Source: an uncultured virus (IMG/VR IMGVR_UViG_3300032291_002419) (lineage: Duplodnaviria; Heunggongvirae; Uroviricota; Caudoviricetes). Taken from it: 63,890 nucleotides of DNA. Below, one piece after another: positions 1,120 to 36,532 of the stretch; positions within the stretch are counted from its first letter, which is position 1; every line of letters begins with the position of its first letter. Below the pieces are notes generated by a model. That model had not been told where the DNA came from and did no database searches. It was given only the letters and a program-made list of their open reading frames with translations. The stretch lies in IMG/VR virus record IMGVR_UViG_3300032291_002419. The stretch is one strand, 5' to 3'. The position numbers and the translations under genes were made by a program.

Positions 1120-1575
1120 ATGCCAAAATTTATATCAGATAGAGATGTAGCCTTTTTTAAAGGATTGGCTAGGGAAGTAGTAGATACAGTTGTTGAAAAC
1201 GTAATCGTATTATTCAAAGTGAATTTGAATGAAACGAAAGTGAATTTGTACGGCGAATCGATTAATAAAACGTGGTATCCGGGCGTAGAACTATACGGTT
1301 TAATTAATAAGGAAGCAGAAACTGCCAATTATGAGGGGTTTGGCTCGGATACCAGTCAAAACATAGAATTCAGATTAGATAGATGGATGTGTGAAGAAAA
1401 AAATACATACCCAGAAATTGGAGATGTTATACTATTTGATAATTCATATTATGAGATAGATAATACAAACGAAATACAATTTGTAGGAGGACAACCTAAG
1501 AATAACTTTAGCATAGTATGTAGCACATTTATGATACGTAAATCTACATTGAATATACAAGAAAGAATTGATTAA
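1120..1575 (+). CDS. Neck/head-closure protein (gp14-like)
   Basis: Lies between gp13-like and gp15-like genes; LYGES and PEIGDVILFDNSYYEI motifs. Confidence 0.55.
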   Translation: MPKFISDRDVAFFKGLAREVVDTVVENVIVLFKVNLNETKVNLYGESINKTWYPGVELYGLINKEAETANYEGFGSDTSQNIEFRLDRWMCEEKNTYPEIGDVILFDNSYYEIDNTNEIQFVGGQPKNNFSIVCSTFMIRKSTLNIQERID

Positions 1576-1577
1576 AT

Positions 1578-2696
1578 ATGGCAATAAATCCGTTAAAGCT
1601 CGATTTAAATAGAGCAAGAGAAGTAAAATCTAACATTGGCGATGTCAAAAAGAGTGTAGGTCTATTTGATATAGATTACGCAATGATGACATATTTGGAA
1701 GATGTTGCGTTGCCGAAATTGGATTATAATGGAAAATCGGTAAGTATTCCGGTTATATATGGTAATTCCGAAAGATGGAAAGGGGCAAGACGTGAGGGGG
1801 TTTATAGAGATGCAAAAGGGCAGATTCAATTACCATTAATGATGCTTCGTAGAACATCAATTGCCAAAGATGATACGATGCCAATGCAAAATAGACACGT
1901 ATCATATCCTACTATTACCAAATATTCAAAAGATAATAGATATGATAGGTTTACTGCGCTTGGTTCAAATGTACAACCTAAGTATGAGTTATACAACATA
2001 GTAATGCCAGATTATGTGGAAATTAATTATGAATGTATGGTTTGGACTGATTATACGGAGCAGTTAAATTCAGTAATTGAACAATTAAACTTTACATCAC
2101 AATATTGGGGAGATAGGGATAAATTTAAATTTAGAACATCCATTTCGGATTTCAACGTAATAAATGAAGTTGGCGAAGGTTCTCAGCGAATAAATCGTGT
2201 TGAATTTAGTTTAAATGTGAAAGCACATTTACTTCCTGATAAATTTGATGGAGAATCTACTACAAGAAAATCGCTATCAATAAAGCGAATTGTAATTGCA
2301 ACCGAAACCGATGTGACAAGTGGAACAGGTCGATTGGAAAATATATTAATAACTCCATCACCATACTATGATAATAAAGATTTAGTTGATTTTTTATCAT
2401 TAAATGGTAGTAGGAATCAATCTACGATAGTAAATAATACCATAACATTTGGTGATATAAAGTTAATAAAAACACCAGCAGCGTTATCATCAATTGTAAC
2501 AGGTACAATGAATATTGGAAGTGATGTATATGATGTTAAAGTATATATAAATGGTGTAAGATATCAGCAATTAAACCAATTCACAGCATCTTTGGTGGGA
2601 AATTCACTTATTATAAATTTTAATTCTGCGGAGTTAGGGTTTGAAGTTGTTTCCGGCGATGATGTGAGTATAACTGGTAAATTTATTGATTTATAA
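1578..2696 (+). CDS. Tail terminator/sheath stabiliser (gp15-like) with C-terminal beta-rich extension
   Basis: IPVIYGNSERW, LPLMMLRRTSI and PDYVEINYE motifs; position before the sheath gene. Confidence 0.6.
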   Translation: MAINPLKLDLNRAREVKSNIGDVKKSVGLFDIDYAMMTYLEDVALPKLDYNGKSVSIPVIYGNSERWKGARREGVYRDAKGQIQLPLMMLRRTSIAKDDTMPMQNRHVSYPTITKYSKDNRYDRFTALGSNVQPKYELYNIVMPDYVEINYECMVWTDYTEQLNSVIEQLNFTSQYWGDRDKFKFRTSISDFNVINEVGEGSQRINRVEFSLNVKAHLLPDKFDGESTTRKSLSIKRIVIATETDVTSGTGRLENILITPSPYYDNKDLVDFLSLNGSRNQSTIVNNTITFGDIKLIKTPAALSSIVTGTMNIGSDVYDVKVYINGVRYQQLNQFTASLVGNSLIINFNSAELGFEVVSGDDVSITGKFIDL

Positions 2697-2793
2697 TAAA
2701 ATGCTATATATGATATATCTATATACAATTTTAATATTTATTATATTTATATGAGAACGATGTAATATGTTATACTATATAATTTAAAATAAA

Positions 2794-3183
2794 ATGAAAA
2801 TGAAATTAATTCAACCCATATCTATTTGGGAAAATGGAGTAACACTTGAGGCAAAAATACTAACCGCACATGCTGCTCATGTGAATTTAGAACACAGTGC
2901 AACATTTTACTACGCATTGCATTCGGAAACGGCAGATGGTAGGTTGGGACAAATGGTTAGAAATGGTAATGTATCAATATTTGGCGATGAATACGCTCAA
3001 TGGGAGCAAGATGAATATGTTTGGAATTGGATAGCATCTAAACTCAATCTAACTATCACTGGAGATTTTGTCGAATCGCCATATACGATGGAGATGCCAT
3101 ATACGACTGAAATTGATACAACATACGTGGAAACCGAAGTTATCTCCAACGATGAAGCTACTCCAGAAGTAGAAACAATTTAA
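2794..3183 (+). CDS. Hypothetical protein with acidic C-terminal tail (possibly tail-associated)
   Basis: 129-aa ORF preceded by ATATTTATA motif at 2743-2751. Confidence 0.5.
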   Translation: MKMKLIQPISIWENGVTLEAKILTAHAAHVNLEHSATFYYALHSETADGRLGQMVRNGNVSIFGDEYAQWEQDEYVWNWIASKLNLTITGDFVESPYTMEMPYTTEIDTTYVETEVISNDEATPEVETI

Positions 3184-3386
3184 TCATCGGTATTAATATA
3201 TCATATTTACTCATTTTTTAACGTCTAATAAACCATATACATTTTATTGGCAATTTTATAATTTAAAATTTATAGAGATATTATATCTATTCCGAAAAAC
3301 ATACAGAATAGATATAATAAATTGTTGTTTTGAAATAAAATATTATATTTATAGAAAGATAATAAAAATTTAAATTAATATATAAA

Positions 3387-5579
3387 ATGGCAGAAAAAAT
3401 AGTATCACCTGGCGTATTTACAAAAGAAAATGACCTTTCATTTTTACAACAAGGTGTAGCAGAAATAGGCGCAGCATTCATTGGTCCTTTTAAAGAAGGT
3501 CCTTTAGTCCCAACCATCGTTAATAGTCAAACGGAGTTTGAAACAATGTTCGGCACAGTAGATGATACATACTACACTCCGTTAGCAGTTCAATCGTATT
3601 TGAGAGAAGCAGGAAGTGCGACAATTTGCAGAGTAGCTGGTGTAGGCGGATATGTAGCAGGGCAACCCCTATTATTAGTAGCAACATCGGGTTCAGTATC
3701 ATCTTCGGTTGGATTTATATTTCCAACAGGTTCATCTGCAACGGGATTAAGTGGCTCATCTATAATAGAAAGTATTGTAAGTAAGAGTATATCTTTAAAT
3801 CCAGAAGATGTAAACGATGTTGAATCTACATTTGGAACAAATCCATTAGGGTCAAAAGCAGGATATGTATATGGATTCTTTAAGAACACCAATATTGGAT
3901 TTGGAGCAAGCACTACTCAAAGTGTATTTGCATTAGGAACTCAGAATTTCGGATTTGATGCACAAGCCGCATTAACTCCAATGATTCAATCTCAAACAAT
4001 TAGTGGCGAGAGATTTAATCTTTTCCAATTTGAAACATTTGGTGCAGGAAATTTGGCAAATACAAAAATCAAAGTTGGTATTACAAATATCAAATCGGCT
4101 GGTTCAGTAAATGGAACAGATTATGGAACATTTACCGTAGTTGTGAGAAATTATACTGATACAAATAAAAGAAAATCAGTATTAGAAACTTGGTCAAATG
4201 TAAATTTAGACCCTAATTCTCCAAACTACATCGCAAAAGTAATTGGTGATAGAAAATTGACAATTGATGCGAGTGGTAAAATTACAGAAGAGGGTTCGTG
4301 GGTAAATAACTCAAAATATATTAGAATTCAAAACTTAAATGAAGTAGCACCGGTTCAAGCAGTTCCATTTGGACATGCAGCATATCAACTACCTGTAAAT
4401 GGAGGAATATATGCAAACTTAATTCCAGCAGTATCATTTGTAACCGCATCGGCTACCCAATATGGTGGTATTGATTTGGATTTTAATACGGATAATGCAA
4501 TTTATATGAAGCCAATTCCGCAAAGTGCTGGAAATGGGGCTAACGTAGTATTTGGATTAGATTCAGCAAATGGTGGAAGTTTAACAGTAGGTTCAACTTC
4601 GGCACAATTCGTTGTAGGTTTCCAAGAAGGATTTGATGGAATGGCACCTACTACACCAATTTATACAGGCGCAGTTATTGAAACTGGAAATTCGCAAGGA
4701 TTTGACTTGACAAATTCAACTTCAAGTGGCTCGGTATCATATATGAAAGCAATTAACGCTTTATCAAATACGGATGAGTGGGATATTAATATGGTAGTAG
4801 CACCTGGAGTTATTCAAAGATTACATTCTTACATTTCGACCGCATTAATAGATTTAGTAGAACAAAGAAGTGATGCATTCTTATTATTAGATAGTATAGC
4901 AGCTGGAGATACAGTCGCACAAGCGGTAACGCAGGCGGGTAACATTGATAGTAATTATGCGGCATCATATTATCCTTGGATTAAAACAATAGATATAAAT
5001 ACAAATAAACTAATCACAATTCCACCATCAGTATTATTGCCAGGAGTATTTGCGGCAAATGATAGAATATCGGCAGAATGGTTCGCACCAGCCGGTTTGA
5101 ATAGAGGTGGTTTGACTGGAGCAGTTAGCGTATTGAATAGATTGACACAATCTGAAAAAGATACACTATATGAAGGAAAAGTAAATCCAATCGTTCAATT
5201 TCCAGGACAAGGCATTGTAGTATTCGGACAAAAGACATTACAAGATAAACCATCTGCATTGGATAGAATTAATGTAAGAAGATTACTATTAACTGTTAGA
5301 AAGTATATCGCATCGACTTCTCGCTACTTAGTGTTCGAACAAAACACTTCGGAAACTAGAAATAGATTTTTAAATATTGTTAATCCATATTTAGAATCAA
5401 TTCAACAAAGACAAGGGCTTTACGCATTCAGAGTAGTAATGGATGAAAGTAACAATACTCCAGATGTAATCGATAGAAACATAATGCAAGGAGCTATATA
5501 TTTACAACCAACGAAAACCGCTGAATTTATTCAGATTGATTTCAATATTTTACCAACAGGTGCGGCTTTTAGCGGATAA
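3387..5579 (+). CDS. Contractile tail sheath protein (gp18-like)
   Basis: N-terminal VSPGVFTKENDLS; C-terminal WFAPAGLNRG, GQKTLQ..SALDRINVRRLL, YLQPTKTAEFI. Confidence 0.95.
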   Translation: MAEKIVSPGVFTKENDLSFLQQGVAEIGAAFIGPFKEGPLVPTIVNSQTEFETMFGTVDDTYYTPLAVQSYLREAGSATICRVAGVGGYVAGQPLLLVATSGSVSSSVGFIFPTGSSATGLSGSSIIESIVSKSISLNPEDVNDVESTFGTNPLGSKAGYVYGFFKNTNIGFGASTTQSVFALGTQNFGFDAQAALTPMIQSQTISGERFNLFQFETFGAGNLANTKIKVGITNIKSAGSVNGTDYGTFTVVVRNYTDTNKRKSVLETWSNVNLDPNSPNYIAKVIGDRKLTIDASGKITEEGSWVNNSKYIRIQNLNEVAPVQAVPFGHAAYQLPVNGGIYANLIPAVSFVTASATQYGGIDLDFNTDNAIYMKPIPQSAGNGANVVFGLDSANGGSLTVGSTSAQFVVGFQEGFDGMAPTTPIYTGAVIETGNSQGFDLTNSTSSGSVSYMKAINALSNTDEWDINMVVAPGVIQRLHSYISTALIDLVEQRSDAFLLLDSIAAGDTVAQAVTQAGNIDSNYAASYYPWIKTIDINTNKLITIPPSVLLPGVFAANDRISAEWFAPAGLNRGGLTGAVSVLNRLTQSEKDTLYEGKVNPIVQFPGQGIVVFGQKTLQDKPSALDRINVRRLLLTVRKYIASTSRYLVFEQNTSETRNRFLNIVNPYLESIQQRQGLYAFRVVMDESNNTPDVIDRNIMQGAIYLQPTKTAEFIQIDFNILPTGAAFSG

Positions 5580-5626
5580 TTTGAAAAATAGATATTTATA
5601 TATAAAAACAATTAAAGAGAAATAAG

Positions 5627-6115
5627 ATGCCAGAAATATTAGAGTTCGATAAAATGTTCTATACCAACTTTGAACCAAAGTTAGGTAATAGATTCATAAT
5701 GGAAATCAACGGAATACAATCATATATGATTAAAACCGCAAGTAGACCAACGTTTACATCGGAAGTAGTTGAATTAGACCATATTAACGTAAAAAGAAAG
5801 ATTAAAGGTAAATCAACTTGGGATGATATTAGTATTACTTTATATGACCCAATTGTTCCATCTGGAGCACAGCAAGTTATGGAATGGATTAGAAGTTCGC
5901 ATGAATCATTAACAGGACGTGATGGATACGCAGCGTTTTATAAAAAAGATATCACATTCTATCTATTAGGCCCAGTTGGTGATAAAATTGAACAATGGAC
6001 TTTGAAAGGAGCATTTATTAATTCAGCAAACTTTGGAGAATTAGATTGGGCTTCAAATGACCCGTTATCAATAGAATTGGGTTTAAGCTATGATTATGCT
6101 ATTTTAGAATATTAA
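5627..6115 (+). CDS. Tail tube protein (gp19-like)
   Basis: 162 aa directly after the sheath; WDDISITLYD, EQWTLKGAF, LSYDYA. Confidence 0.9.
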   Translation: MPEILEFDKMFYTNFEPKLGNRFIMEINGIQSYMIKTASRPTFTSEVVELDHINVKRKIKGKSTWDDISITLYDPIVPSGAQQVMEWIRSSHESLTGRDGYAAFYKKDITFYLLGPVGDKIEQWTLKGAFINSANFGELDWASNDPLSIELGLSYDYAILEY

Positions 6116-6180
6116 CCTTAACACATAAGTGAACAAATTTGAAAAGTTAATTAGTAAATTCTGAAAAACTAAAAAAAATT

Positions 6181-6213
6181 AAAAACCTCTTTATAATATA
6201 AGGAGGTTTTTTT
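6181..6213 (+). terminator. Intrinsic terminator after tail tube gene
   Basis: AAAAACCTC...GAGGTTTTTTT inverted repeat with T-tract. Confidence 0.7.
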
Positions 6214-6266
6214 ATTTATAATTTTTAAAAAAAATGAATATATATATTAAATATTAAGTTATAAAT

Positions 6267-7085
6267 ATGGAACAATCAAACGTAGAACAGCAAGTTACAA
6301 GAGGAATGGGGACATATCCAAGTCACGAATCAAAAAATTATCCATTTCCAACGGAAATCATTAGTTTACCATCAAAAGGATTGGTATATCCTGAAAATAA
6401 CCCATTATCATCCGGAGAAATCACAATAAAACTACTAACGGCAAAAGAAGAAGATATCCTCACTTCAACTAATTTAATTAGGAAGGGGGTTGTCATAGAT
6501 AGGCTATTGGAGTCAATTGTGGTCGATAGTAATGTTAAAGTTGGTGATTTAGTAATCGGAGATAAAAACGCTATATTGGTAGCAACTAGAGTATTAGCGT
6601 ATGGTCCTGAATATGCGGTTACGATTACAGACCCAAGCGAAAACGAGCCAGTTGATGTAAAAGTTGATATGTCAAAATTAAAAATCAAAGAAATTCCTGA
6701 TGAATTATTAAATCGTCAAAACGAATATGAATTCAAATTACCGAAAGGGAATACCACTATTAAATTTAAATTACTAACTCATGCAGATGAATTGGCGATT
6801 AATAAAGATATTGAGGCTAGTGAGAAAACATTAAAGCAAGGAAACGAAGTAACGACTCGTTTAAGGCGTATAATAGTTGAAGTTAATGGTAATAGAGAAG
6901 TTGGATATATTAGTAACTTTGTAATAAATCAATTACAAGCTGCCGATTCGAAGGCTTTGCGAAAGTATATGCAAACGTTGACTCCCGATATAGATTTGAC
7001 TTTTGAATACACATCCCCTTATACAGGTGAGACGGAGGCTCTCCGAATCCCTATGGGGATTGACTTTTTTTACCCTGCCGATTAA
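6267..7085 (+). CDS. Baseplate hub/tail assembly chaperone (T4 gp26-like)
   Basis: LPSKGLVY, LTAKEEDIL and terminal IPMGIDFFYP; lies between tube and tape measure genes. Confidence 0.75.
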   Translation: MEQSNVEQQVTRGMGTYPSHESKNYPFPTEIISLPSKGLVYPENNPLSSGEITIKLLTAKEEDILTSTNLIRKGVVIDRLLESIVVDSNVKVGDLVIGDKNAILVATRVLAYGPEYAVTITDPSENEPVDVKVDMSKLKIKEIPDELLNRQNEYEFKLPKGNTTIKFKLLTHADELAINKDIEASEKTLKQGNEVTTRLRRIIVEVNGNREVGYISNFVINQLQAADSKALRKYMQTLTPDIDLTFEYTSPYTGETEALRIPMGIDFFYPAD

Positions 7086-7296
7086 TTACGGAATTACATT
7101 ACATAAGCAGATATTTAGTTTAATTTATAATTCAAATGGAGGGTTTAACTGGCATGATGTTTATTTTATGCCAGTTAAACTAAGAGAATTTTATTGGAAA
7201 GAGTTAATAAAATCAAAAGAAGCCGAATCCAAAGTATATGAAGATGCCTCTCGCAAAAATGCATTACAAACATCAAATACAGTTAAGCGGCGATAA
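7066..7296 (+). CDS. Overlapping +1-frame extension of the chaperone (gp51/gpGT-like), probably made by frameshifting
   Basis: Open frame overlaps the T7 run at 7065-7071; encodes HKQIFSLIY...WHDVYFMPVKLREFY; no ATG upstream of the conserved part. Confidence 0.6.
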   Translation, partial: FFTLPINYGITLHKQIFSLIYNSNGGFNWHDVYFMPVKLREFYWKELIKSKEAESKVYEDASRKNALQTSNTVKRR

Positions 7297-7334
7297 AAAA
7301 TTATATTTTATATTTATTAATATAGATTTTAATA

Positions 7335-9866
7335 ATGGCAAATTCCAATAATCGTAATAGAAATGTAATCGATAATGTAGAAAGAAGTATCGGTACTCTT
7401 AATCAAAATATAATAAGTTTTGAGAGAACTATCAATACATTAGTTAATAGTATAAATGCATTTCAAAACTCAGTAGGAACGAATTCACCATCACCTACAT
7501 CTTCGAATGGAAATACCAATTCCAATAGACGAACTACTAGCGCAAGGCGTGGATATGCAACTGAAACCCAAAAGCAAATGTCTAAATTTGATAAAGATGC
7601 GGCTCGTCTGGGAATGCAGCGTATTAACGATTTTACTAATAATGTGTTTGGCAAACGAGCCACCGAAAAGATGAATAGAGCTATGGCTCGTGGGTTGGGA
7701 TATATAAATCCACGTAATGCAACCGGCGGTGGTGGTATAGGGGGTGCAATGCGTAGTGCAGGAGGTAGTATGGGTACAATACTTGGTTCGGCACTTAGAA
7801 TGGCAGGCCCTGCTGCCGCAATATTAGGTGTTGCTAAACAGGCATTTGATTTTTGGGATAGTGGTGGAATAGCCAAATTAAAGATTGGTGCAAAAATGCT
7901 GACCGGAAATAAAATGACGGGAGTAGACGATATTGCCAGTGTTCAAAAAGATTTGGAAGGAACGGAGCAAATGCGTAAATTGAATGCGGAATATAACTAT
8001 AAAATTCCATTACAATTAAAACAGCAAGCAGCCGATGATATGTTTGATTATAATAAGGGAATTGAGCAGGACCAACTTAATTATCAACAAGGATTAGTTA
8101 AAGATAAATTAGATTATCAGCTGGGATTAACAAAGGATGCATTGAATTTTCAATTACAACAAGCTATGGAAACATTAGATGCGGAATTGGAAAAACGAAA
8201 AGCTATTCAATCTTCTGGAATGAAATTTATTAGTAAATATTCAACTATATCGGAAAGAGCATTAAAAGCAATTGGTTCTTCAACTAAAGCTATAATAGAA
8301 GGTATTAGTAAATTTCAATTCGTATTCGGTGGTAGTGTAAAAGATAGCTTTAAATTAAATGAACAAGCTGCGGGTTTATCTTACCACCTTGGGGGTTCAG
8401 CCGATGATGTTATGAATATGACAAATCTTTTCCGTTTAATGGGAAACACATCAGCTGAAATGGCACAAAATTTGATAGGGGGTATAGAAGCTTTTGCAAA
8501 ACAAAACTTATTATCACCCCAAGCAATATTCAATCAAATCAAAGATGCGGGAGAAGATATATACAAATTTAGTAGTGGTACTGCTGATAATTTTGTAAAA
8601 CAAGCTGGCCTACTTACTAAAATGAGTGTATCGATGAGTCAAATGATGAAGGCATCGGATTCAATGGTATTAAATTATCAAGATAGTATAAAAGCCGAAA
8701 TGAGTTTATCAGCAATGCTTGGAAAAAATGTAAACCTTTCCGAAGTAAGGGCTAGACTAATGAGTAACGACACACCAGGTGCAGCATCGGCACTTAAATC
8801 TGCATTAAGTGGTATCGATATTGGTTCTATGAACGCATTCCAAAGGCAAGCATTAACACAAGCTACCGGAATGGATATCTCCGCATTAATGGGATTACAA
8901 CAAGGCAAAGGTGGTGTATTGACTGGTGAGTTGAAAGCTGAGAAAGATAAAGGAAAAGCGTTCGCAGATGCAGCACTTAAACAAGATATATCAAACGCCG
9001 GTGCGAAACTTAGATTGGAACAAGACCAAAGAGCCAAATTATTAGCATTCGAACAGAGACAGCGGTTGATAATGTTAAATCTGGAACAGGCTCAAAGATT
9101 GGATGGCATATTCTTGGAACAAAAATATAGAGCATTGGCCGCAGATAAGGATTATGCACAGTCAAAAGAACTGATGGCAATAGAGATGATGGCCGATGTT
9201 GCGGCAAACTTCGCAGTAAACTTAAAATCAGGAACCGCTAGCGCATTTGACTCAAAAAACTTACCTAATGTAACATATTTCAATCGAGCCGTTGGAAAAT
9301 TCGATGATAAGGTTACTGATTTAATAAGTAGTGGAGCTATAAAAGGCACTGATATGCGATTGGCAGATTATCTTTCTAAAAAAGATAGTATTATGGCAAA
9401 TGTATCCAAAAAAACCACTCCTGCTGATGTTGAAAATCGGATGCAAAAATTATATACGGATATATTTGGCTCGACAATATCAAATCAAAAAAGTAAACCC
9501 GTAGACTGGTTGGCGCCTATGAAAAATGTAGGTATGCAATTGGGAAAAAATAGTTCTATGACGAAAGAACTTATGACAGGCGTAGTATCTAACAATAAAG
9601 TATCTACCAAATCAACGGTTACGGCGATAGCTAGTACAGGTCAAAAGCAAATTAGTAAACAAACCGAATCATTAACGGAATCGCAATATTCAAATAAGAT
9701 ACAAAATGAAATGGTAGCTCTTTTAGCAGTCAATGCGACAATATTAGAGAGAATCGCAATCAATACCAACCTTGCCAATGGTGTAATGTCAATTAATTTG
9801 GATGGCGCTACGCTTAATAAAAAATTATTAGCAAATACTCGAAAAAACTACTCAGTAAATAGATAG
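7335..9866 (+). CDS. Tape measure protein
   Basis: 843-aa Ala/Gly/Met/Gln-rich helical protein after the chaperone; C-terminal INLDGATL motif. Confidence 0.8.
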   Translation: MANSNNRNRNVIDNVERSIGTLNQNIISFERTINTLVNSINAFQNSVGTNSPSPTSSNGNTNSNRRTTSARRGYATETQKQMSKFDKDAARLGMQRINDFTNNVFGKRATEKMNRAMARGLGYINPRNATGGGGIGGAMRSAGGSMGTILGSALRMAGPAAAILGVAKQAFDFWDSGGIAKLKIGAKMLTGNKMTGVDDIASVQKDLEGTEQMRKLNAEYNYKIPLQLKQQAADDMFDYNKGIEQDQLNYQQGLVKDKLDYQLGLTKDALNFQLQQAMETLDAELEKRKAIQSSGMKFISKYSTISERALKAIGSSTKAIIEGISKFQFVFGGSVKDSFKLNEQAAGLSYHLGGSADDVMNMTNLFRLMGNTSAEMAQNLIGGIEAFAKQNLLSPQAIFNQIKDAGEDIYKFSSGTADNFVKQAGLLTKMSVSMSQMMKASDSMVLNYQDSIKAEMSLSAMLGKNVNLSEVRARLMSNDTPGAASALKSALSGIDIGSMNAFQRQALTQATGMDISALMGLQQGKGGVLTGELKAEKDKGKAFADAALKQDISNAGAKLRLEQDQRAKLLAFEQRQRLIMLNLEQAQRLDGIFLEQKYRALAADKDYAQSKELMAIEMMADVAANFAVNLKSGTASAFDSKNLPNVTYFNRAVGKFDDKVTDLISSGAIKGTDMRLADYLSKKDSIMANVSKKTTPADVENRMQKLYTDIFGSTISNQKSKPVDWLAPMKNVGMQLGKNSSMTKELMTGVVSNNKVSTKSTVTAIASTGQKQISKQTESLTESQYSNKIQNEMVALLAVNATILERIAINTNLANGVMSINLDGATLNKKLLANTRKNYSVNR

Positions 9867-30649: not shown

Positions 30650-31870
30650 ATGAAATTTTGGGATTCAGAACCAACTATACCAGCATTTGTATTTGAAGAT
30701 GAGAAGCGAAAGTTGATAGAAAATATGAACTACCTTATGACAATGAGTGTAGAAGAGCAAACTCTATATAAAAAATGGGTAGAATTACAAGATGCATCTA
30801 TGATTAGAGATAAATCGCAGATGGCATCTTTATATGATATGCAATGGCGACCAACTGATATTAATAATAAAGAACTAACTATTAAAGAAATTGAAGAGTT
30901 AGACCCATACGTTCAGATTGTTGAAGATGATGCCATTCAATCAACTAAATGGGGATATCTTAGAAAGATGATTCATACTATGAGTTGGACAGCAAATCCT
31001 GGCAGAAATGTAAAAATGTTTATCAAAGATAGAGTAAGCGGTAAATTATTAGGATTGGTTTCATTGGCATCGGATGTTACATCAATGGGTGTTAGAGATA
31101 ACTATATTGGTTGGACTAAAGATGATAAGTTTAAAAAAGGTAAATTAAATCACACAACAATTGCATCATCAATAGTGTGCACTCAGCCATTAGGTTACAA
31201 CTTTTTAGGAGGTAAGCTAACAGCAATGATGGCTACCGTTCCAGAAGTCAGAGAATTTTGGAAAAATAAATATGGACAAACATTAATAGCAGTCGGCACA
31301 ACATCTTTATATGGAATCCATTCACAGTATAATGGGATTCCTCATTTTAAAACATTAGGAGAATCGGCTGGTAAAATTAGTTTAAAGCCGGATGATAAAT
31401 TTTATGACCCTTGGCATCAATGGATTAAGGAAAATCGTGCCGATTGGTATCAAACTGCTATAACTAATGAAAGAATCAGAAATGGAGCTAATATGGGAAC
31501 TGGCGAAGGTGCTAGTGGGCCCGTAAGTGGTATTAAGCAAAAGATTTTGGGACAGATATTCAAAGAATGCGGTATTAAGGCAACTGAATTTCACCACGGA
31601 TTTAAGCGAGGTGTTTATTTAGCAATGATATATGAAAATGGACCTGAATTCCTACGTTCAGAAATAGAAGAAGATAAATTAGTAATAAAGCCAAAATTTT
31701 CAGAAGGACAGGAATATATTAATAAATGGTGGAAACGACATGCAATTAAAAGATATTCCAAATTACATGATGAGGGAAGATTGAAGCCGGAATGTCTTTA
31801 TTACTTAGATGGAATCGGAAAGAATTGGGAAGATTTTAAAGCTCAGAGGTTGGGCGATGTGGGTAGATAA
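30650..31870 (+). CDS. DUF4338/DruA-like protein (Mom-related GNAT fold)
   Basis: PGRNVKMFI, RDNYIGW, QPLGYNFLGGKL, TTSLYG..SQYN, LGESAG. Confidence 0.75.
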   Translation: MKFWDSEPTIPAFVFEDEKRKLIENMNYLMTMSVEEQTLYKKWVELQDASMIRDKSQMASLYDMQWRPTDINNKELTIKEIEELDPYVQIVEDDAIQSTKWGYLRKMIHTMSWTANPGRNVKMFIKDRVSGKLLGLVSLASDVTSMGVRDNYIGWTKDDKFKKGKLNHTTIASSIVCTQPLGYNFLGGKLTAMMATVPEVREFWKNKYGQTLIAVGTTSLYGIHSQYNGIPHFKTLGESAGKISLKPDDKFYDPWHQWIKENRADWYQTAITNERIRNGANMGTGEGASGPVSGIKQKILGQIFKECGIKATEFHHGFKRGVYLAMIYENGPEFLRSEIEEDKLVIKPKFSEGQEYINKWWKRHAIKRYSKLHDEGRLKPECLYYLDGIGKNWEDFKAQRLGDVGR

Positions 31871-33057: not shown

Positions 33058-34863
33058 ATGGCATATCAAAACATATACTATGAAAGGGCAAAGAATTTAA
33101 TTCATCTATGGGATGATACACAGGGATATTCAACTTTTCCGTATCGAAAGTATGCATATAAGCGAGACCCAAACGGACAATATCGTTCAATGTATGGAGA
33201 TAAATTAAGTAAAATTGGCAAATGGGAAAAAGATGATGAAGGAGAACTATTCGAATCAGATGTTCCAGAGACTACTAGAGTATTAGTTGATATATACGAT
33301 AACGATTTACCATCAAAAGGACACAGAGTTCTTACATTTGATATTGAGGTAGAAATGATTTCAGGACTACCAAATACCAAAGAAGCAAAGAATGAAATAA
33401 CTGCAATAGCGGCACACGATGGAGCAACTAAGCTATATGATGTATTTGTATTGGATAAAGAAAGAAAAGTAAAAAACAAAGCCAAAAATTTTAATAAGGA
33501 TGGCAGAGAGGTTACTCTTCATATATTCGATAACGAAAGAAATTTATTACAAGCATTTCTTAATTATTATGAAGAAGTAAATCCAACAATATTGACCGGC
33601 TGGAACATCGACTTTTTTGATATTCCATATTTGTATAATAGATTGAAAAATGTGTGTGGAGAAGGAAATGCAAAACGTCTATCTCCAATAGGGCAGGCAT
33701 TTTGGTCGCCATATAGAGAGAAATTTAGTTTTGGAGGTGTAGCTATTTTAGATTATATAAATTTATATAAAACATATACATATACATTAGAGGCATCCTA
33801 TACATTGAATTATATTGCTACAAAGGAATTGGGTAGAGGTAAAATTGAATATGAAGGCAGTTTAGATGATTTATTTGAAAATGATTTAGAAAAATTCATT
33901 GAATACAATATTGTCGATGTCGATTTGGTTGTATCTATGGATACGAAGTTACAATTTATAGAATTATGTAGAGCAGTATGTCACGCTGGATATGTTCCGT
34001 ATGAAGATTACATTTATTCATCAAAATGGCTAGAAGGCGCTTGTTTGGGATATCTTAAAAAGAAAGAATTAATTGCAACAAATAAGCCAAAAGATAGACG
34101 AGAGAGAATGCAAGCTCTTAAAGATAATAATGAAGAAAAGTTTATTGGAGCATATGTAAAAGAACCTATTGTTGGTAAGTATGATTGGATTTATGATTTG
34201 GACTTAACATCCCTATATCCATCAATCATTATGACCTTAAATATCAGTCCCGAAACAAAAGTTGGTAAGATTCAAAATTGGGATGCGGAAGCTAATATTA
34301 GAGGATTAGATACGACATATCAATTAGTAGGGAAAGATGGTGATACATACTCATATACGACTCAGGAGTTGAAGGAAGTTATTACTGATAGTAATTTAGG
34401 TGTGGCTGCGAATGGAGTTCTTTACACACAAGATAAGAAGGGTCTAATCGCTGATATTTTGAATGACTGGTTTGATAAACGTGTTGAGTTTAGAAAATTA
34501 GAAAAAAAATATGGTGAACTGGGTGATACGGAAAAATATGACTTTTATGCCAAACGGCAGCTTGTTCAAAAAATTCTACTCAACTCCATGTATGGGTGTC
34601 TTGGATTGCCAGCTTGGAGATTCTACGATCGTGATAACGCTGAAGCCGTTACAATTACGGGGCAAATGGTAATTAAAAAAACAGCAGATATGGCTAATAT
34701 CAAATATAATAAGGAATTGGGGGGCATCCCATATCTCGTTGAATTGGAGGATGGTAGTATCAAAGAATATCACCCAAATACCATAGTGTCAGTAAAACGT
34801 GATGGTGTAATACAGCAAATAAAAGCTAGTGAATTGAATACTAATGATGATTTAATTTTTTAA
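33058..34863 (+). CDS. polB: Family-B DNA polymerase, N-terminal fragment (exonuclease + motifs A and B) with intein-like C-terminal tail
   Basis: FDIEV, GWNIDFFDIPY, YNIVDV, DLTSLYPSII, KILLNSMYG; last ~46 aa are intein-like. Confidence 0.92.
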   Translation: MAYQNIYYERAKNLIHLWDDTQGYSTFPYRKYAYKRDPNGQYRSMYGDKLSKIGKWEKDDEGELFESDVPETTRVLVDIYDNDLPSKGHRVLTFDIEVEMISGLPNTKEAKNEITAIAAHDGATKLYDVFVLDKERKVKNKAKNFNKDGREVTLHIFDNERNLLQAFLNYYEEVNPTILTGWNIDFFDIPYLYNRLKNVCGEGNAKRLSPIGQAFWSPYREKFSFGGVAILDYINLYKTYTYTLEASYTLNYIATKELGRGKIEYEGSLDDLFENDLEKFIEYNIVDVDLVVSMDTKLQFIELCRAVCHAGYVPYEDYIYSSKWLEGACLGYLKKKELIATNKPKDRRERMQALKDNNEEKFIGAYVKEPIVGKYDWIYDLDLTSLYPSIIMTLNISPETKVGKIQNWDAEANIRGLDTTYQLVGKDGDTYSYTTQELKEVITDSNLGVAANGVLYTQDKKGLIADILNDWFDKRVEFRKLEKKYGELGDTEKYDFYAKRQLVQKILLNSMYGCLGLPAWRFYDRDNAEAVTITGQMVIKKTADMANIKYNKELGGIPYLVELEDGSIKEYHPNTIVSVKRDGVIQQIKASELNTNDDLIF

Positions 34864-34911
34864 TACATCATACATAAAATTAAAAACTTATATTTATAAT
34901 AAAACAATGTT

Positions 34912-35577
34912 ATGGAATATATACGAAACTGCCCAATATGTAATACTGAATTAAAAACTACCAACAAATATTGGAATATCAAAGCATTAAATGAAAATCG
35001 TAGTTGTAATAGATGTGCAAAAATTGGCAGAGTATTTTCAGATGAACATAGGCGTAAATTGAGAGAAAACCATGCCGATATATCTGGCAAATTAAATCCA
35101 TTTAGCGGTAAATCGCATACCAAAGAATCCATTGATAGAATGTTAGCGACTAGAAGTAATCACCCAACTTGGAAGCAGAATGCATCAAATACAATGAAAC
35201 GAATACGTAGTGAGTATTGGGGTAATGATAATCCAATGAATAATTTGGATAGTGTACATAAAATTAGAATTAAAAGAATTGATGAAATACGGCGTAATCA
35301 TAATGGACAGATATCGCCAAATTATAATGTAAAATCGATACCAATTATAGAAGAAAAAGCTAGAGAATTGGGCATAACCGATATACAGCACGCAGAAAAT
35401 GGTGGGGAATATCATATAAAGGAATTAGGGTATTGGGTAGATGGATATAGTAAGGAAAAAAATATAGTAATAGAATATTATGAAAAGTTTCATAGAACTC
35501 AAATTAAACGAGATAGTATTAGAGAAACTTCTATAAAAAATTTATTAGGATGTGAGTTTATAATAATATACGAATAA
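34912..35577 (+). mobile_element. Free-standing homing endonuclease (Zn finger + NUMOD3 + Vsr-like/PD-(D/E)XK domain) splitting polB
   Basis: CPIC..CNRC, NPFSGKSHTKES, YWVDGYSKEKNIVIEYYEKFH; ATATTTATA at 34890-34898. Confidence 0.85.
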
Positions 35578-35584
35578 ATAAAAT

Positions 35585-36532
35585 ATGAGAATAAAAAAGA
35601 TTACAAAAAAAACTGTTATATTAGATGATACTGGCAATGTAGATTATAATGTGTATATAGATACGGATTCTGTATATTTTTTAGCAGAACCATTAGTAAA
35701 ACATCGATACCCAAATTACAAAGAATTTGACCAAAATAGAATGGCTGATGAAGTGAATGGTATTGCAGATGAAACTCAAACATTCTTAAATTCATTTTAT
35801 GATTTATTAGCTGAAAGATTTTTCTTCATTCCAAAGGATAATCACCGATTGGAAATCAAAAAAGAATACATCAGTAAAGCGGGATTTTGGGTAGCTAAAA
35901 AACGATATGCACAATGGATGATTTTAAAGAATGGCATTCCATGCGATAAGTTAGATGTTAAAGGATTGGATGTAGTTCGTTCATCATTTCCAAAAGCATT
36001 TCAGGACCAGATGAGTGCTATGTTAAAAGATATATTAATGGGTAAGGATAATGAATACGTTGATACAAAGTTATTGGCATTCAAAGCTAGTATGGCTACT
36101 TTACCAGTTAATAAGATAGCTAAGGGTGGGGCAATTAAAGAATTAAGTAAATATGATAATGGCAGTTGGCGAAAAGATGATGGTAATGCCATTGCATCAT
36201 TTGAGAAAGGAACGCCAGCACACGTTAAAGCAGGGATTACCTATAACCGACTATTGAAATACTTCAATGCACCATATAAACATGAACCAATTAGAGATGG
36301 TGATAAAGTTAAATGGGTATATCTTAAAAATAATCCATTAGGTTTGGAGACTTTGGCATTCAAAGATTATAACGACCCAAAGGAGATTATGGATTTTGTG
36401 GAAAGATACATAGATAGAGATAAGCTATACATATCGGATATGGAAAATAAAGTAGATGATTTTTATAGAGCACTCAAATGGCAAAAAGCATCAGCAGATA
36501 CGCAGACTGCAAAAAAGTTTTTCGCATTTTAA
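35585..36532 (+). CDS. polB: Family-B DNA polymerase, C-terminal fragment (motif C + thumb) with basic intein-C-like leader
   Basis: YIDTDSVY, KKRYA, VKGLDVVRSS; first 19 aa MRIKKITKKTVILDDTGNV are not polymerase-like. Confidence 0.92.
   Translation: MRIKKITKKTVILDDTGNVDYNVYIDTDSVYFLAEPLVKHRYPNYKEFDQNRMADEVNGIADETQTFLNSFYDLLAERFFFIPKDNHRLEIKKEYISKAGFWVAKKRYAQWMILKNGIPCDKLDVKGLDVVRSSFPKAFQDQMSAMLKDILMGKDNEYVDTKLLAFKASMATLPVNKIAKGGAIKELSKYDNGSWRKDDGNAIASFEKGTPAHVKAGITYNRLLKYFNAPYKHEPIRDGDKVKWVYLKNNPLGLETLAFKDYNDPKEIMDFVERYIDRDKLYISDMENKVDDFYRALKWQKASADTQTAKKFFAF

What the first reader, a model, noticed from the sequence alone, without database searches (positions are those of the whole stretch)
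34720..35670. DNA polymerase B split in two and tagged with non-splicing split-intein remnants around a homing endonuclease
Seen: polB is broken between motif B (KILLNSMYG) and motif C (YIDTDS) by a free-standing Vsr-like endonuclease. After ...KYNKELG the N-half has a 46-aa foreign tail (IPYLVELEDGSIKEYHPNTIVSVKRDGVIQQIKASELNTNDDLIF*, ~34726-34863). The C-half starts with a 19-aa basic leader (MRIKKITKKTVILDDTGNV, 35585-35641) before DYNVYIDTDS. Known: fractured phage genes with split inteins flanking Vsr-like endonucleases exist. The tail resembles the distal lobe of an N-intein (Y.I.LEDG...KASEL...D.L), and the leader resembles the first strand of a C-intein (M.IKKI.K). However, every splicing residue is absent: no Cys1/Ser1, no TxxH His, no terminal His-Asn and no +1 Cys/Ser/Thr. 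Inference: only the acidic/basic capture elements of a split intein were kept, as a non-covalent dimerisation tag. That would give a two-subunit polymerase whose active site is assembled in trans, letting an endonuclease occupy an essential gene with no RNA or protein splicing.
Basis: partly seen in the sequence, partly recalled or inferred. Interest (0 to 1): 0.9.

Follow-up and report, generated by a model that had tools for sequence, protein, structure and literature searches.

The report
Polymerase split by spent split intein
A freshwater phage's DNA polymerase gene is cut in two around a selfish endonuclease gene, and each half carries a leftover piece of a split intein that can no longer splice but probably still holds the halves together.

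Summary
polB is two ORFs (33058-34863, 35585-36532) around a free-standing endonuclease gene (34912-35577). The break lies between motifs B and C. A 45-aa tail and a 19-aa leader are absent from uninterrupted relatives.

The intein-remnant reading is supported on origin:
- A profile of 32 tails finds inteins first among solved sequences (best E 5e-4).
- An AlphaFold model of a rare fused tail+leader matches only Hint folds in its top 24 rows, across the endonuclease-insertion point (Z 8.2).
- A related viral contig has a real split intein with the same endonuclease family. Its N-intein end and C-intein start resemble the tail and leader.

No splicing residue is present.

The tags are conserved in 51 of 120 listed relatives and are under purifying selection. 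They persist where the endonuclease is missing, and their charges are opposite. The window's polB nests among unsplit polymerases, with donor-type residues beside the junction, so the cassette came in laterally.

That the tags act as a non-covalent tether is inferred, not shown. I rate this a new variant of a known kind.

The parts
33058..34863 (+). polB N-half (601 aa): exonuclease domain, motif A, motif B, then the tail; stop TAA at 34861-34863
   Evidence: ORF. Pfam DNA_pol_B_exo1 and DNA_pol_B. phrog_262 positions 11-567 of 856.
34570..34596 (+). polymerase motif B, KILLNSMYG (residues 505-513)
   Evidence: Read from the sequence.
34500..34725 (+). Junction-proximal polB flank with donor-type residues, a likely co-conversion tract. 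A sharp recombination breakpoint against contig L046 lies near 34500.
   Evidence: L046 differs at 13-41 of every 100 nt upstream of 34500 and at 0-1 of 100 downstream. 9 of 45 residues differ from the nearest unsplit relative, against 37 of 511 elsewhere, p 0.0075. C514, W520, R525, D544 and G556 occur in 0-1% of 67 unsplit and in 15-94% of 48 split sequences.
34726..34860 (+). 45-aa acidic tail (residues 557-601): remnant of the distal (N2) lobe of a split N-intein, from block B to the split point
   Evidence: Absent from unsplit relatives. The tail profile hits inteins. The tail HMM hits the real N-intein of L016; BLASTP 38% identity, E 4e-5. dN/dS is 0.02-0.23. Net charge is -4.
34864..34911 (+). 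48-nt spacer between the tail stop and the endonuclease start. A predicted hairpin at about 34888-34921 covers the endonuclease ATG.
   Evidence: strand folding on 34840-34930 gave z -3.0. No terminator-like site, and promoter-like sites below the shuffle mean.
34912..35577 (+). Free-standing homing-endonuclease-like gene (221 aa). It has an N-terminal CxxC...CxxC module, a NUMOD3 motif (residues 39-77, 35026-35142) and a C-terminal PD-(D/E)xK / Vsr-like nuclease domain (residues 136-221, 35317-35574).
   Evidence: NUMOD3 scores 25.3 bits against a cut-off of 20.4. AlphaFold model. VIA-align: I-Bth0305I catalytic domain Z 7.4, Vsr Z 6.9. 38 viral loci carry relatives, two of them between real split-intein halves.
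35585..35641 (+). 19-aa basic leader MRIKKITKKTVILDDTGNV: remnant of the first strand of a split C-intein
   Evidence: Absent from unsplit relatives. 32 of 117 C-side proteins start this way. The leader HMM scores 16.1 bits on residues 1-13 of the real C-intein of L016. Purifying selection. The first 10 residues carry +5.
35585..36532 (+). polB C-half (315 aa): leader, motif C, rest of the palm, thumb
   Evidence: ORF. phrog_262 positions 565-851 of 856. Pfam DNA_pol_B at 22.3 bits, just under the cut-off of 23.
35654..35671 (+). polymerase motif C, YIDTDS, uninterrupted in the window

Best explanation
The window comes from a T4-like phage of freshwater lakes. Its family-B DNA polymerase gene is interrupted in the surface loop between motif B and motif C by a three-part cassette: tail-coding DNA with a stop, a free-standing Vsr-like homing endonuclease gene, and a start with leader-coding DNA.

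The tail and leader are what is left of a split intein. The tail corresponds to the second (N2) lobe of the N-intein, from block B to the split point. The leader corresponds to the first strand of the C-intein. The first roughly 70 residues of the intein (with residue 1) and the last roughly 30 (blocks F and G) are gone. Block B has lost its Thr and His, and the +1 residue is Asp. Protein splicing is therefore impossible (shown).

The two polypeptides are made separately. I infer that they assemble non-covalently into one polymerase whose palm is built in trans: motifs A and B come from the N-half and motif C from the C-half. The acidic tail and basic leader would zip into the same beta structure that they form in a split intein during its capture step. 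That would give the halves affinity and register.

The cassette is not ancestral here. The window's polB belongs to an otherwise unsplit clade and carries donor-type residues on both sides of the junction. It was most likely imported by endonuclease-driven recombination (homing with co-conversion) from a phage of the split clade (inferred from tree and mosaic patterns).
For: Anatomy: (uninterrupted Mel-JY01).

Hint origin:
- The profile of 32 tails against 177,635 solved sequences returned 14 hits at E<=10. At least 7 are inteins. The top hits are the Pab PolC intein (E 5.4e-4) and the Aes123 PolB1 split intein 9hth (E 1.5e-3). All of them align tail positions 8-52 to intein residues about 77-127.
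- An AlphaFold model of the fused tail+leader of P0008 has pLDDT about 90 over the tail.
- VIA-align against 48,161 chains returned only Hint folds in the top 24 rows. The best is 5bkh, Z 8.2, rmsd 1.9 A, 56 residues. In endonuclease-bearing inteins the aligned ranges span the endonuclease domain, for example PI-PfuI 73..428.
- Nearly all of the best-ranked Foldseek rows are inteins or hedgehog domains.
- Contig L016 has a real split intein around an endonuclease of the same family. The N-part ends in an N-intein that starts CISGDS, has TPNH and ends ELTEYDELKIV*. The C-part starts MKIKSIKRVKNVETCYDIQVPDRHCYYANGILVHN|T. The tail HMM hits that N-intein at E 8.7e-7, BLASTP gives E 4e-5, and the leader HMM scores 16.1 bits.

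Functional constraint on the tags:
- 51 of the 120 listed relatives carry the tail.
- Tail dN/dS is 0.02-0.23 in the 10 close pairs with unsaturated dS, against 0.02-0.07 for the flank.
- The leader shows 8 nt differences of 57 with 1 amino-acid change.
- Tags are kept where the endonuclease is absent. The gap between the tail stop and the leader ATG is 8 nt in L052 and 19 nt in L055.
- Tags are also kept in a 484-kb phage with four unrelated ORFs between the halves.
- Charges: 31 of 32 tails are net negative (mean -4.2). 23 of 24 leaders are positive over their first 10 residues (mean +3.3).

Lateral origin:
- In the tree of 111 rows the window sits in starred clades of 12 unsplit + 2 split rows (SH-aLRT 99) and 26 unsplit + 2 split rows (97).
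- Divergence from the nearest unsplit relative is raised beside the junction on both sides (p 0.0075 and 0.013), with split-clade residues there.
- Sharp identity breakpoints lie at or near the cassette in L046 and L052/L048.

Precedent: tails that came with a mobile endonuclease are essential for a split phage RNR. Those authors speculated that the tails might be intein remnants (PMC3045599, abstract and Discussion).

The capture step of split inteins is electrostatic and involves the N2 lobe and the C-intein (PMC11923092, passages).
Against: - No result here shows that tail and leader bind, or that the polymerase needs them.
- Pfam finds no Hint family in the tail, the leader or the fused insert at E<=10.
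- Foldseek gives no match at E<=0.001. VIA Z values of 5-8 are in the range that the tool itself calls middling.
- In the model the leader part had no alignment depth and scores lower, pLDDT 76 then 61.
- The fused form rests on one predicted protein from one contig, and its DNA could not be fetched.
- In the RNR precedent the tails were not needed for the two fragments to bind each other. They were needed for a higher assembly.
- Other split polB genes work without such tags. Aeromonas phage 25 43A/43B is broken upstream of motif B and shows no Hint-like ends.
- In at least 8 related loci a 5- or 7-nt insertion inside motif C separates the leader's reading frame from the rest of the C-half. 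If that is a true third break, the leader there cannot tether the C-half.
Confidence: 0.62

Rival explanations
1. The tags are intein debris with no tethering role. The two halves find each other through the large native polymerase interface. The tags persist only because they must not interfere: they may be needed for folding, solubility or termination and initiation signals, or they may not have decayed yet.
For: Split polB in Aeromonas phage 25 has no Hint-like ends. In the split RNR of phage Aeh1 the tails were not required for the fragments to form the heterodimer (PMC3045599, Discussion). Tail dN/dS (up to 0.23) is somewhat more relaxed than that of the flank (0.02-0.07).
Against: Length and sequence pattern are kept across clusters only 40-60% identical. 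dN/dS is far below 1 in tail and leader. Charge polarity is conserved. The tags are retained in loci that lost the endonuclease or gained other inserts.
Confidence: 0.2
2. Tail plus leader form a small inserted domain with a job of its own in the replisome, such as a docking site for another phage or host protein or a regulatory module. Its split state is secondary.
For: A contiguous version exists (P0008, 914 aa) in which tail and leader are fused in frame with no extra residues. It is modelled as a compact beta unit.
Against: Only 1 of the 52 tail-bearing proteins among the 120 listed is fused. That protein sits on a long branch inside the unsplit clade. The domain is a fragment of a Hint fold, with no known partner. 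No evidence for any partner was looked for or found.
Confidence: 0.1
3. The halves are joined covalently after all, by an unorthodox protein ligation, by RNA splicing, or by ribosomal bypass of the whole endonuclease gene.
For: None positive. The related loci do show an odd recoding-like feature, at a different place, inside motif C.
Against: There is no nucleophile at the tail start: the position after ELGG varies (I, A, Q, S, D, K, G, T, N, R, E, H, C). There is no His-Asn at the leader end, and the +1 residue is Asp. No Rfam family matches at E<=1. In loci without the endonuclease the two ORFs are 8 or 19 nt apart and out of frame. No joined contig was seen in the 4 runs laid, which are contigs only and therefore weak evidence.
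Confidence: 0.03

Closest known systems
[quoted passage not shown] 2009, PMC2677866; abstract, passages and section 13 read)
   Same: The layout is the same: N-part with an intein-N end, a free-standing endonuclease, and a C-part with an intein-C start. It occurs in phage-like DNA and in a DNA-synthesis enzyme. An endonuclease of the same family as the window's sits between real split-intein halves in L016 and L015/L018.
   Different: Only about 40% of the Hint fold is left here and every splicing residue is gone, so the product cannot be ligated. B-type polymerase is not named among the host enzymes in the passage seen (gp41 helicase, IMPDH, DnaE, NrdA, NrdJ, DNA ligase, terminase). That paper does describe one SbcD-like gene split by a Vsr-like ORF with 25-aa and 9-aa extra ends and no intein. 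That may be the same phenomenon, but it was not interpreted as intein-derived in the text read.
Split class Ia RNR of Aeromonas phage Aeh1: NrdA-a and NrdA-b with tails that came with the mobE endonuclease (Crona et al. 2011, PMC3045599; abstract and Discussion read)
   Same: An essential phage gene is split by a free-standing homing endonuclease. C- and N-terminal tails absent from intact homologues have opposite charges. No RNA or protein splicing is involved. The authors raised the idea that the tails are remnants of a degenerate intein.
   Different: No homology of those tails to inteins was shown there. Here it is shown by profile, by fold and by a living relative. The polarity is reversed: the Aeh1 C-terminal tail is basic, while the tail here is acidic. 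In Aeh1 the tails serve dimerisation of heterodimers, not fragment pairing. The function here is untested.
Naturally split inteins and their capture-and-collapse assembly, such as Npu DnaE, gp41-1 and the Aes123 PolB1 intein of T4-like Aeromonas phages (PMC11923092, passages read; Shah et al. 2013 known only through that text)
   Same: The tail equals the N2 lobe and the leader equals the start of the C-intein. These are the charged, disordered parts said to drive association. The Aes123 PolB1 intein (9hth) is the second-best sequence hit of the tail profile.
   Different: There is no N1 lobe, no residue-1 nucleophile, no block-B Thr or His, and no block F or G. There is no ligation and no excision, so the tags stay in the mature enzyme.
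Split gp43 (43A/43B) of T4-like Aeromonas phages such as phage 25 (record NC_008208 as annotated; Petrov et al. 2006 known only through Dassa's text)
   Same: A T4-type polB in two adjacent genes with a homing endonuclease gene between them.
   Different: That break is upstream of motif B, in the fingers. The 43A end and the 43B start show no Hint-like tags. PHROG families phrog_2062 and phrog_1918 also point to that other break point.

Membership tests
Intein (protein-splicing Hint domain) | Hint fold | tested here: inconclusive
   Only a fragment is present. The model of tail+leader superposes on intein residues about 73-138 of a 170-residue mini-intein (Z 8.2, rmsd 1.9 A, 56 aligned), and the top 24 rows are all Hint folds. 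The tail profile hits inteins, best E 5.4e-4. Pfam reports no Hint family at E<=10.
Intein (protein-splicing Hint domain) | Cys, Ser or Thr nucleophile at intein residue 1 | tested here: not met
   The first roughly 70 intein residues are missing. The residue after ELGG is Ile in the window and varies across 32 tails.
Intein (protein-splicing Hint domain) | Block B TxxH | tested here: not met
   In the alignments to 2lcj and 9hth, TxxH aligns to Y-P-N-S/T in the family and to H-P-N-T in the window. The catalytic His position is Thr or Ser.
Intein (protein-splicing Hint domain) | C-terminal His-Asn (block G) and a +1 Cys, Ser or Thr | tested here: not met
   The leader ends GNV and is followed by Asp20. 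The 24 aligned leaders end variably before an almost invariant Asp. The real relative in L016 has ...VHN|T.
Intein (protein-splicing Hint domain) | Endonuclease or split point in the conserved loop of the C-terminal half of the fold | tested here: met
   The aligned ranges jump over the endonuclease domains of PI-PfuI (73..428), PI-PkoII (72..512) and the TliVMA intein (66..346), and cross the fusion point of split inteins.
Fractured gene (Dassa et al. 2009) | Conserved enzyme gene broken into two adjacent ORFs with a free-standing endonuclease ORF between | tested here: met
Fractured gene (Dassa et al. 2009) | Functional split intein on the two ends | tested here: not met
   See the intein rows above. 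Only the middle of the Hint fold is left.
Vsr-like / I-Bth0305I-type homing endonuclease | Vsr-type PD-(D/E)xK catalytic fold with N-terminal DNA-binding modules such as NUMOD3 | tested here: inconclusive
   NUMOD3 is above the Pfam cut-off. The model of residues 136-221 matches the I-Bth0305I catalytic domain at Z 7.4 and Vsr at Z 6.9, tied with many other PD-(D/E)xK nucleases; the best row is a mitoribosomal protein at Z 9.4. The family profile finds no solved sequence. Catalytic residues were not mapped.
Vsr-like / I-Bth0305I-type homing endonuclease | Site-specific cleavage of the endonuclease-free allele | not testable with these tools
   Indirect evidence only: presence/absence polymorphism at one site (L052 against L048 and L050) and identity breakpoints at the cassette.
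Split gene held together by tails derived from a mobile element (Aeh1 NrdA type) | Tails on both fragments, absent from intact homologues, oppositely charged | tested here: met
Split gene held together by tails derived from a mobile element (Aeh1 NrdA type) | Tails required for assembly or activity | not testable with these tools
   Needs co-expression and assays. Purifying selection is the only proxy.
Family B DNA polymerase, T4 gp43 type | Exonuclease and polymerase motifs present over the two halves | tested here: met
   Pfam and PHROG coverage. FDIE, DLDLTSLYPS, KILLNSMYG, YIDTDS and KKRYA are read.

The most novel reading that the evidence does not exclude
Tail, endonuclease and leader together form a self-contained, laterally moving gene-splitting cassette. 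It is a split intein that has given up splicing and kept only its capture module. A homing endonuclease can therefore turn an intact essential polymerase gene into a working two-subunit enzyme in a single recombination event. The tags are the antidote that travels with the cut. This would be a third way for a mobile element to be harmless inside an essential gene, beside RNA splicing and protein splicing, and a natural source of small orthogonal heterodimerisation tags.
Probability: 0.45. Interest if true: 0.8.

Novelty: new variant of a known kind. Interest (0 to 1): 0.68.

Why it matters
This locus links two known things that had no demonstrated connection: splicing split inteins in fractured phage genes, and non-splicing tails that rescue genes broken by homing endonucleases. 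The idea that such tails are degenerate inteins was raised in 2011 without evidence.

Three forms are available side by side: a tail and leader with detectable Hint homology, a living split-intein relative next to the same endonuclease family, and a fused form. That makes the idea directly testable.

If the tags do tether the halves, several points follow:
- Intein decay can end in a stable two-subunit enzyme rather than in loss of the element.
- An endonuclease can invade an essential gene without any splicing.
- Nature may offer very short capture peptides (45 and 19 aa) of use in protein engineering.

The form is common. It makes up 51 of the 120 listed relatives. This very sequence is held in 16 lake, freshwater and unlabelled metagenome runs from about 15 studies, one of which may be its own source.

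Tried and rejected
- Complex prediction on the tags alone (alignments A1 and A3) gave no verdict: score 0.24 against a mark of 0.32, and the controls were not run. It says nothing either way.
- Pfam at E<=10 found no Hint or intein family in the tail, the leader or the fused insert.
- Foldseek against PDB found no row at E<=0.001 for either model.
- The profile of the endonuclease family found nothing meaningful among solved sequences. PHROGs found nothing for the endonuclease at 0.01.
- tblastn of the 53-aa tail stretch against 50,697 phage records gave only chance-level hits, E 3-9. megablast of the locus against the same records found no match.
I made a narrower alignment (A2) and used that instead.
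- Alignment A4 (tails, leaders and P0008 together) misaligned the tail ends onto the leader. It was dropped in favour of A5.
- Looking for more fused forms failed twice. The search for homologous proteins with P0008 residues 548-640 returned only P0008. phmmer of the 88-aa stretch over 1.84 billion representatives gave 4 hits: a TPR/CHAT/TIR protein, a 57-aa tail fragment, a 5189-aa protein that I did not examine, and a repeat protein. None was a fused polB. P0008's own DNA was not found in viral contigs.
- RNA splicing or joining: no Rfam hit. No joints appeared in 3 RNA-labelled runs and 1 DNA run, all contigs. RNA-library contigs cover only parts of the stretch (one in the N-half upstream of the tail, others inside the endonuclease and the C-half) and may be DNA carry-over. 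This is not evidence of absence.
- Promoter and terminator scans found nothing above shuffles.
- Earlier findings of this scan were not open to the session.
- I considered whether the Aes123 PolB1 split intein sits at the same site. I could not find its insertion site in the passages read. Phage 25 of the same host has its polB break elsewhere.
- Literature searches found no description of Hint-derived non-splicing tags in a polymerase. The library holds open-access papers only, so this is no proof that none exists.

Full report
WHAT IS THERE

The region holds three same-strand ORFs:
- a 601-aa ORF at 33058..34863
- a 221-aa ORF at 34912..35577
- a 315-aa ORF at 35585..36532

Pfam places the family-B exonuclease and polymerase domains in the first ORF and the later part of the polymerase domain in the third. 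The PHROG DNA-polymerase profile phrog_262 (856 positions) matches the first ORF at 6-555 to positions 11-567. It matches the third at 13-313 to positions 565-851. The two halves therefore abut and no polymerase sequence is missing.

Motif B (KILLNSMYG) lies at residues 505-513 of the first ORF. Motif C (YIDTDS) lies at residues 24-29 of the third. The neighbours are a glycosyltransferase-like gene, a clamp-sized ORF without a Pfam family, a MazG-like gene and an RFC/clamp-loader ATPase. This gene order matches Microcystis phage Mel-JY01.

THE TAIL AND LEADER ARE EXTRA

Mel-JY01 is the closest named phage (51% and 44% identity). It has one uninterrupted polB. Residues 1-557 of the N-half and 20-315 of the C-half map 6 nt apart on it.

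A search of the 5.8-billion-protein collection with residues 470-601 gave 1256 hits. The 120 listed break down as follows:
- 67 are uninterrupted polymerases with 58 residues from motif B to motif C. Their junction reads KELGTK(D/V/I)DYNVYIDTDS.
- 51 are N-halves that stop after a homologous tail.
- 1 (P0008, 914 aa) has tail and leader fused in frame.
- 1 is truncated.

On the other side, 32 of 117 listed C-side proteins begin with a leader of the MKIKKI type. The tail is 45 aa (residues 557-601) and the leader is 19 aa.

ARE THEY INTEIN PIECES?

Four independent lines say yes, although Pfam's own Hint models do not see them at E<=10.

(a) Sequence profile. A profile of 32 tails was searched against all solved sequences and returned 14 hits at E<=10. 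At least 7 are inteins: Pab PolC (5.4e-4), the Aes123 PolB1 split intein 9hth (1.5e-3), PI-PkoII, Mja KlbA, two PolII inteins and Pho RadA. All of them align the tail to the same place, intein residues about 77-127. That is block B and the strands up to the split or endonuclease-insertion point.

(b) Fold.
- The 88-residue stretch of P0008 that holds tail and leader was modelled with an alignment of 17 tails. The tail has pLDDT about 90. A long strand runs from the tail's end through the leader.
- VIA-align, which does not lean on Foldseek, compared the model with 48,161 chains. Ranks 1-24 are all Hint folds (inteins, hedgehog, a BIL domain).
- The best rows are the Pho PolII mini-intein (Z 8.2, rmsd 1.9 A, 56 residues, chain 73..138), PI-PfuI (Z 7.8, chain 73..428) and gp41-1 (Z 6.6, chain 39..102).
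- In inteins that carry an endonuclease domain the aligned range jumps over that domain. The tail-leader junction is therefore the canonical insertion and split point.
- Foldseek gives the same families at the top, but with E of only 0.04-0.5.
- The Z values are middling by the tool's own note. The argument rests on the exclusiveness of the list and on its agreement with (a).

(c) A living relative.
- Searching viral contigs with the endonuclease gave 38 loci.
- In L016 an endonuclease of the same family (57% identical over window residues 103-219) lies between two parts of a ligase-like gene (motif EK|...|TDG).
- The upstream part ends in a complete N-intein that starts CISGDS, has TPNH and ends ELTEYDELKIV*. 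The downstream part starts with a complete C-intein, MKIKSIKRVKNVETCYDIQVPDRHCYYANGILVHN|T.
- The tail HMM hits that N-intein at E 8.7e-7 in the six-frame set. BLASTP of its last 40 residues against the window's tail gives 38% identity and E 4e-5.
- The leader HMM scores 16.1 bits on the first 13 residues of that C-intein. Several leaders share its first seven residues, MKIKSIK.
- A second real split intein, with a short N part, flanks another member of the endonuclease family in L015/L018.

(d) Topology. Tail, free-standing endonuclease and leader stand in the order and at the point where an intein has its N part, its endonuclease domain and its C part.

WHAT IS MISSING

Against a 170-residue mini-intein, roughly the first 70 residues and the last 30 are absent. 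The residue after ELGG is Ile in the window and varies freely in the family. Block B TxxH aligns to Y-P-N-S/T in the family. The window reads H-P-N-T, so its His sits at the Thr position and the catalytic His position is Thr. The leader ends GNV before Asp20, so there is no His-Asn and no +1 nucleophile. Protein splicing by any known route is excluded.

No Rfam family matches the region. In relatives without the endonuclease the two ORFs are 8 or 19 nt apart and out of frame. An intron or read-through is therefore not the answer either.

ARE THE TAGS KEPT FOR A REASON?

- They occur in clusters only 40-60% identical to each other, with a fixed length and pattern.
- I computed dN/dS over the 45 tail codons and judged 10 close pairs to have unsaturated dS. 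In those pairs it is 0.02-0.23, against 0.02-0.07 for the 60 polymerase codons before it. More distant pairs are saturated and were not used. A few rows (L043, L044, L030, L057) were offset by one residue in the flank and were ignored.
- Leaders of L052/L048 and L050 differ at 8 of 57 nt with one amino-acid change.
- Twenty-two related loci were examined: 5 from viral contigs (one is the window's own contig), 15 from metagenome contigs, plus L005 and L030.
- In those loci the space between the halves varies. It holds a relative of the window's endonuclease (L044/45, L048, L049/51, L050, L054, L056 and the near-identical L041/L046), nothing at all (L052, L055, about 50 nt in L057), or other DNA (L043, L058, L030). 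In a 484-kb uncultured phage (LR756508.1) it holds four unrelated ORFs.
- The tags are present in all of these loci that show the relevant ends.
- 31 of 32 tails are net negative (mean -4.2). 23 of 24 leaders are positive over their first ten residues (mean +3.3). The window has -4 and +5.

This is the charge segregation described for the capture step of split inteins, which involves the N2 lobe and the C-intein (PMC11923092, passages). None of this shows binding. It shows that the peptides are made and matter.

HOW THE WINDOW GOT THE CASSETTE

A maximum-likelihood tree was built from the region upstream of motif B. It has 111 rows: 62 unsplit, 48 split and 1 fused. P0046 was left out because of an intein in its exonuclease domain, and the junction-proximal part was excluded.

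The window and its near-copy P0002 sit deep inside the unsplit clade. The starred sets that contain them have 12 unsplit + 2 split rows (SH-aLRT 99), 26 + 2 rows (97) and 61 unsplit + 3 split + 1 fused rows (99). Starred branches force at least three changes of state.

Against the nearest unsplit relative (P0112) the window differs as follows:
- at 9 of the last 45 residues before the junction, against 37 of 511 before that (Fisher p 0.0075)
- at 16 of the first 81 residues after the leader, against 18 of 215 later (p 0.013)

Five of the junction-side residues (C514, W520, R525, D544, G556) occur in 0-1% of 67 unsplit sequences but in 15-94% of 48 split ones.

Two natural mosaics show breakpoints at the cassette:
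- Contig L046 is identical to the window from about 34500 through the tail, endonuclease and C-half. Upstream it differs at 13-41 of every 100 nt.
- L052 (no endonuclease) is 98% identical to L048 (with endonuclease) downstream of the junction and 85% identical upstream. The endonuclease insert lies exactly between the tail's stop and a point about 6 nt before the leader's ATG.

The simplest reading is endonuclease-driven recombination with co-conversion of flanks. The tags travel as part of the flank. This is inferred; cleavage was not tested.

THE ENDONUCLEASE

Pfam sees only NUMOD3, above its cut-off. The family alignment shows an N-terminal CxxC...CxxC module, variable NUMOD-like repeats and a strongly conserved C-terminal domain.

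The model of that domain (residues 136-221) matches PD-(D/E)xK nucleases. The I-Bth0305I catalytic domain ranks third (Z 7.4, rmsd 2.6 A, 72 residues) and Vsr ranks fourth (Z 6.9). They follow two mitoribosomal proteins and are tied with many other nucleases. Sequence profiles find no solved relative.

The label Vsr-like is thus reasonable but not proven. Most of the 38 related loci carry the gene between ordinary genes, not inside one.

HOW IT MOST LIKELY WORKS

Shown:
- There are two separate ORFs with their own stop and start.
- No splicing chemistry is available.
- The tags are Hint-derived and constrained.
- The cassette is laterally acquired.

Inferred:
- The halves are translated separately.
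- The acidic tail and basic leader pair as they would in a split intein's capture complex. This brings the end of the N-half and the start of the C-half together at the loop that normally joins them.
- The palm closes with motifs A and B from one chain and motif C from the other.

I put this at about 0.6. The main rival, at about 0.2, is that the native polymerase interface does the work and the tags are tolerated baggage. The split RNR of phage Aeh1 warns that tails can be essential for a reason other than fragment pairing (PMC3045599, Discussion).

COMPARISON WITH WHAT IS KNOWN

The layout is that of the fractured genes of Dassa et al. 2009. Membership fails, however, on the defining functional split intein. 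The outcome is that of the Aeh1 NrdA tails (Crona et al. 2011), whose authors speculated about a degenerate intein without evidence of homology. Split gp43 of Aeromonas phage 25 is broken at another place and lacks such ends.

My searches of the open-access library found no report of intein-derived, non-splicing tags on a polymerase. Subscription papers and supplements were not seen. I therefore rate this a new variant of a known kind, not a new kind.

OCCURRENCE

The exact stretch is held at 87-99% of sampled words by 16 DNA runs from about 15 studies. Most are labelled lake water or freshwater, and one may be the source sample. A 2.6-kb contig of an independent lake run covers 34300-36000 with 5 differences.

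A SIDE OBSERVATION

In at least eight distinct related loci, though not in the window, motif C itself is interrupted by 5 nt (7 nt in one locus). The insertion places a stop right after the Thr codon of YIDT. In six of the eight it repeats a Thr codon just before GAY-TCN. This is listed under Noticed in passing.

Noticed in passing
Related loci, not the window: L005 804, L044 3833 (same as L045), L049 5654 (same as L051), L054 2895, L056 1157, L057 1194, L058 4748, L061 (minus strand, match 1501-1531). L030 shows the same type by translation only.: Inside motif C of the C-half, extra bases put a stop codon directly after the Thr codon of YIDT and shift the rest (DSVFF...) into another frame.

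The insertions found:
- ACT|TGACT|GAC in two loci
- ACG|TGACG|GAC
- ACC|TAACT|GAT
- ACG|TAACC|GAT
- ACC|TGACA|GAC
- ACG|TAATG|GAT
- a 7-nt form, ACG|TAAATCA|GAC

In six of the eight a Thr codon is repeated 5 nt on. That fits a short translational hop: take-off Thr codon, stop in the A site, landing Thr codon, as in T4 gene 60 in miniature. The comparison is recalled, not tested here.

In five of the eight an ATG, GTG or TTG overlaps the stop. That fits a third break of the polymerase between the two catalytic Asp residues. Neither reading fits all cases.

The site coincides with a real intein insertion in L001 (YTD|intein|TDS).
   Followed up: partly
L016 2228..6571: A textbook fractured gene in a viral contig. 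A ligase-like gene (KxDG motif split as EK|...|TDG) carries a complete split intein with Cys1, TPNH and HN|T. A 282-aa endonuclease of the window's family lies between the halves. This is the living counterpart of the window's remnant.
   Followed up: partly
L015 about 1397-2300 and L018: Another real split intein around the same endonuclease family. This one has a short N part (...C|LWGKSIITVKNKLTGKIKNINLGDLYSEL*) and a long C part ending ...DGIISHN|C. It resembles the atypically split inteins described for phage terminases (recalled).
   Followed up: no
L001 (LR756508.1, 484-kb uncultured phage) 1364..9288: Its polB is split at the same loop, with a homologous tail and leader, but with four unrelated ORFs (about 3 kb) between the halves. 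It also carries two apparently complete inteins. One is in motif B (KILIN|CFTPG...NLIGQ|SVYG, ending in Gln rather than Asn). The other is in motif C (YTD|SCPGF...VVHN|TDS).
   Followed up: partly
window 30650..31870: A 406-aa ORF two genes upstream of polB matches Pfam DruA (Druantia defence protein A) at 75.8 bits against a cut-off of 27. This is unexpected in a phage replication module. A homologue also stands next to endonuclease copies in L005.
   Followed up: no
window 34888..34921: A predicted RNA hairpin covers the start codon of the endonuclease gene (whole 91-nt stretch z -3.0). This is reminiscent of the structure said to hold down MobE expression in phage Aeh1 (PMC3045599, legend of Figure 5).
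   Followed up: no
L005 (viral contig, 8.4 kb): Four copies of the endonuclease family lie within 8 kb. One is upstream of a polB C-half and the others stand between unrelated genes. This suggests a very active element in that phage.
   Followed up: no
P0046 (956 aa, metagenome protein): A tail-bearing polB N-half that also carries a full LAGLIDADG intein in its exonuclease domain (Pfam families as precomputed). One polymerase gene can thus host both a live intein and the spent one.
   Followed up: no
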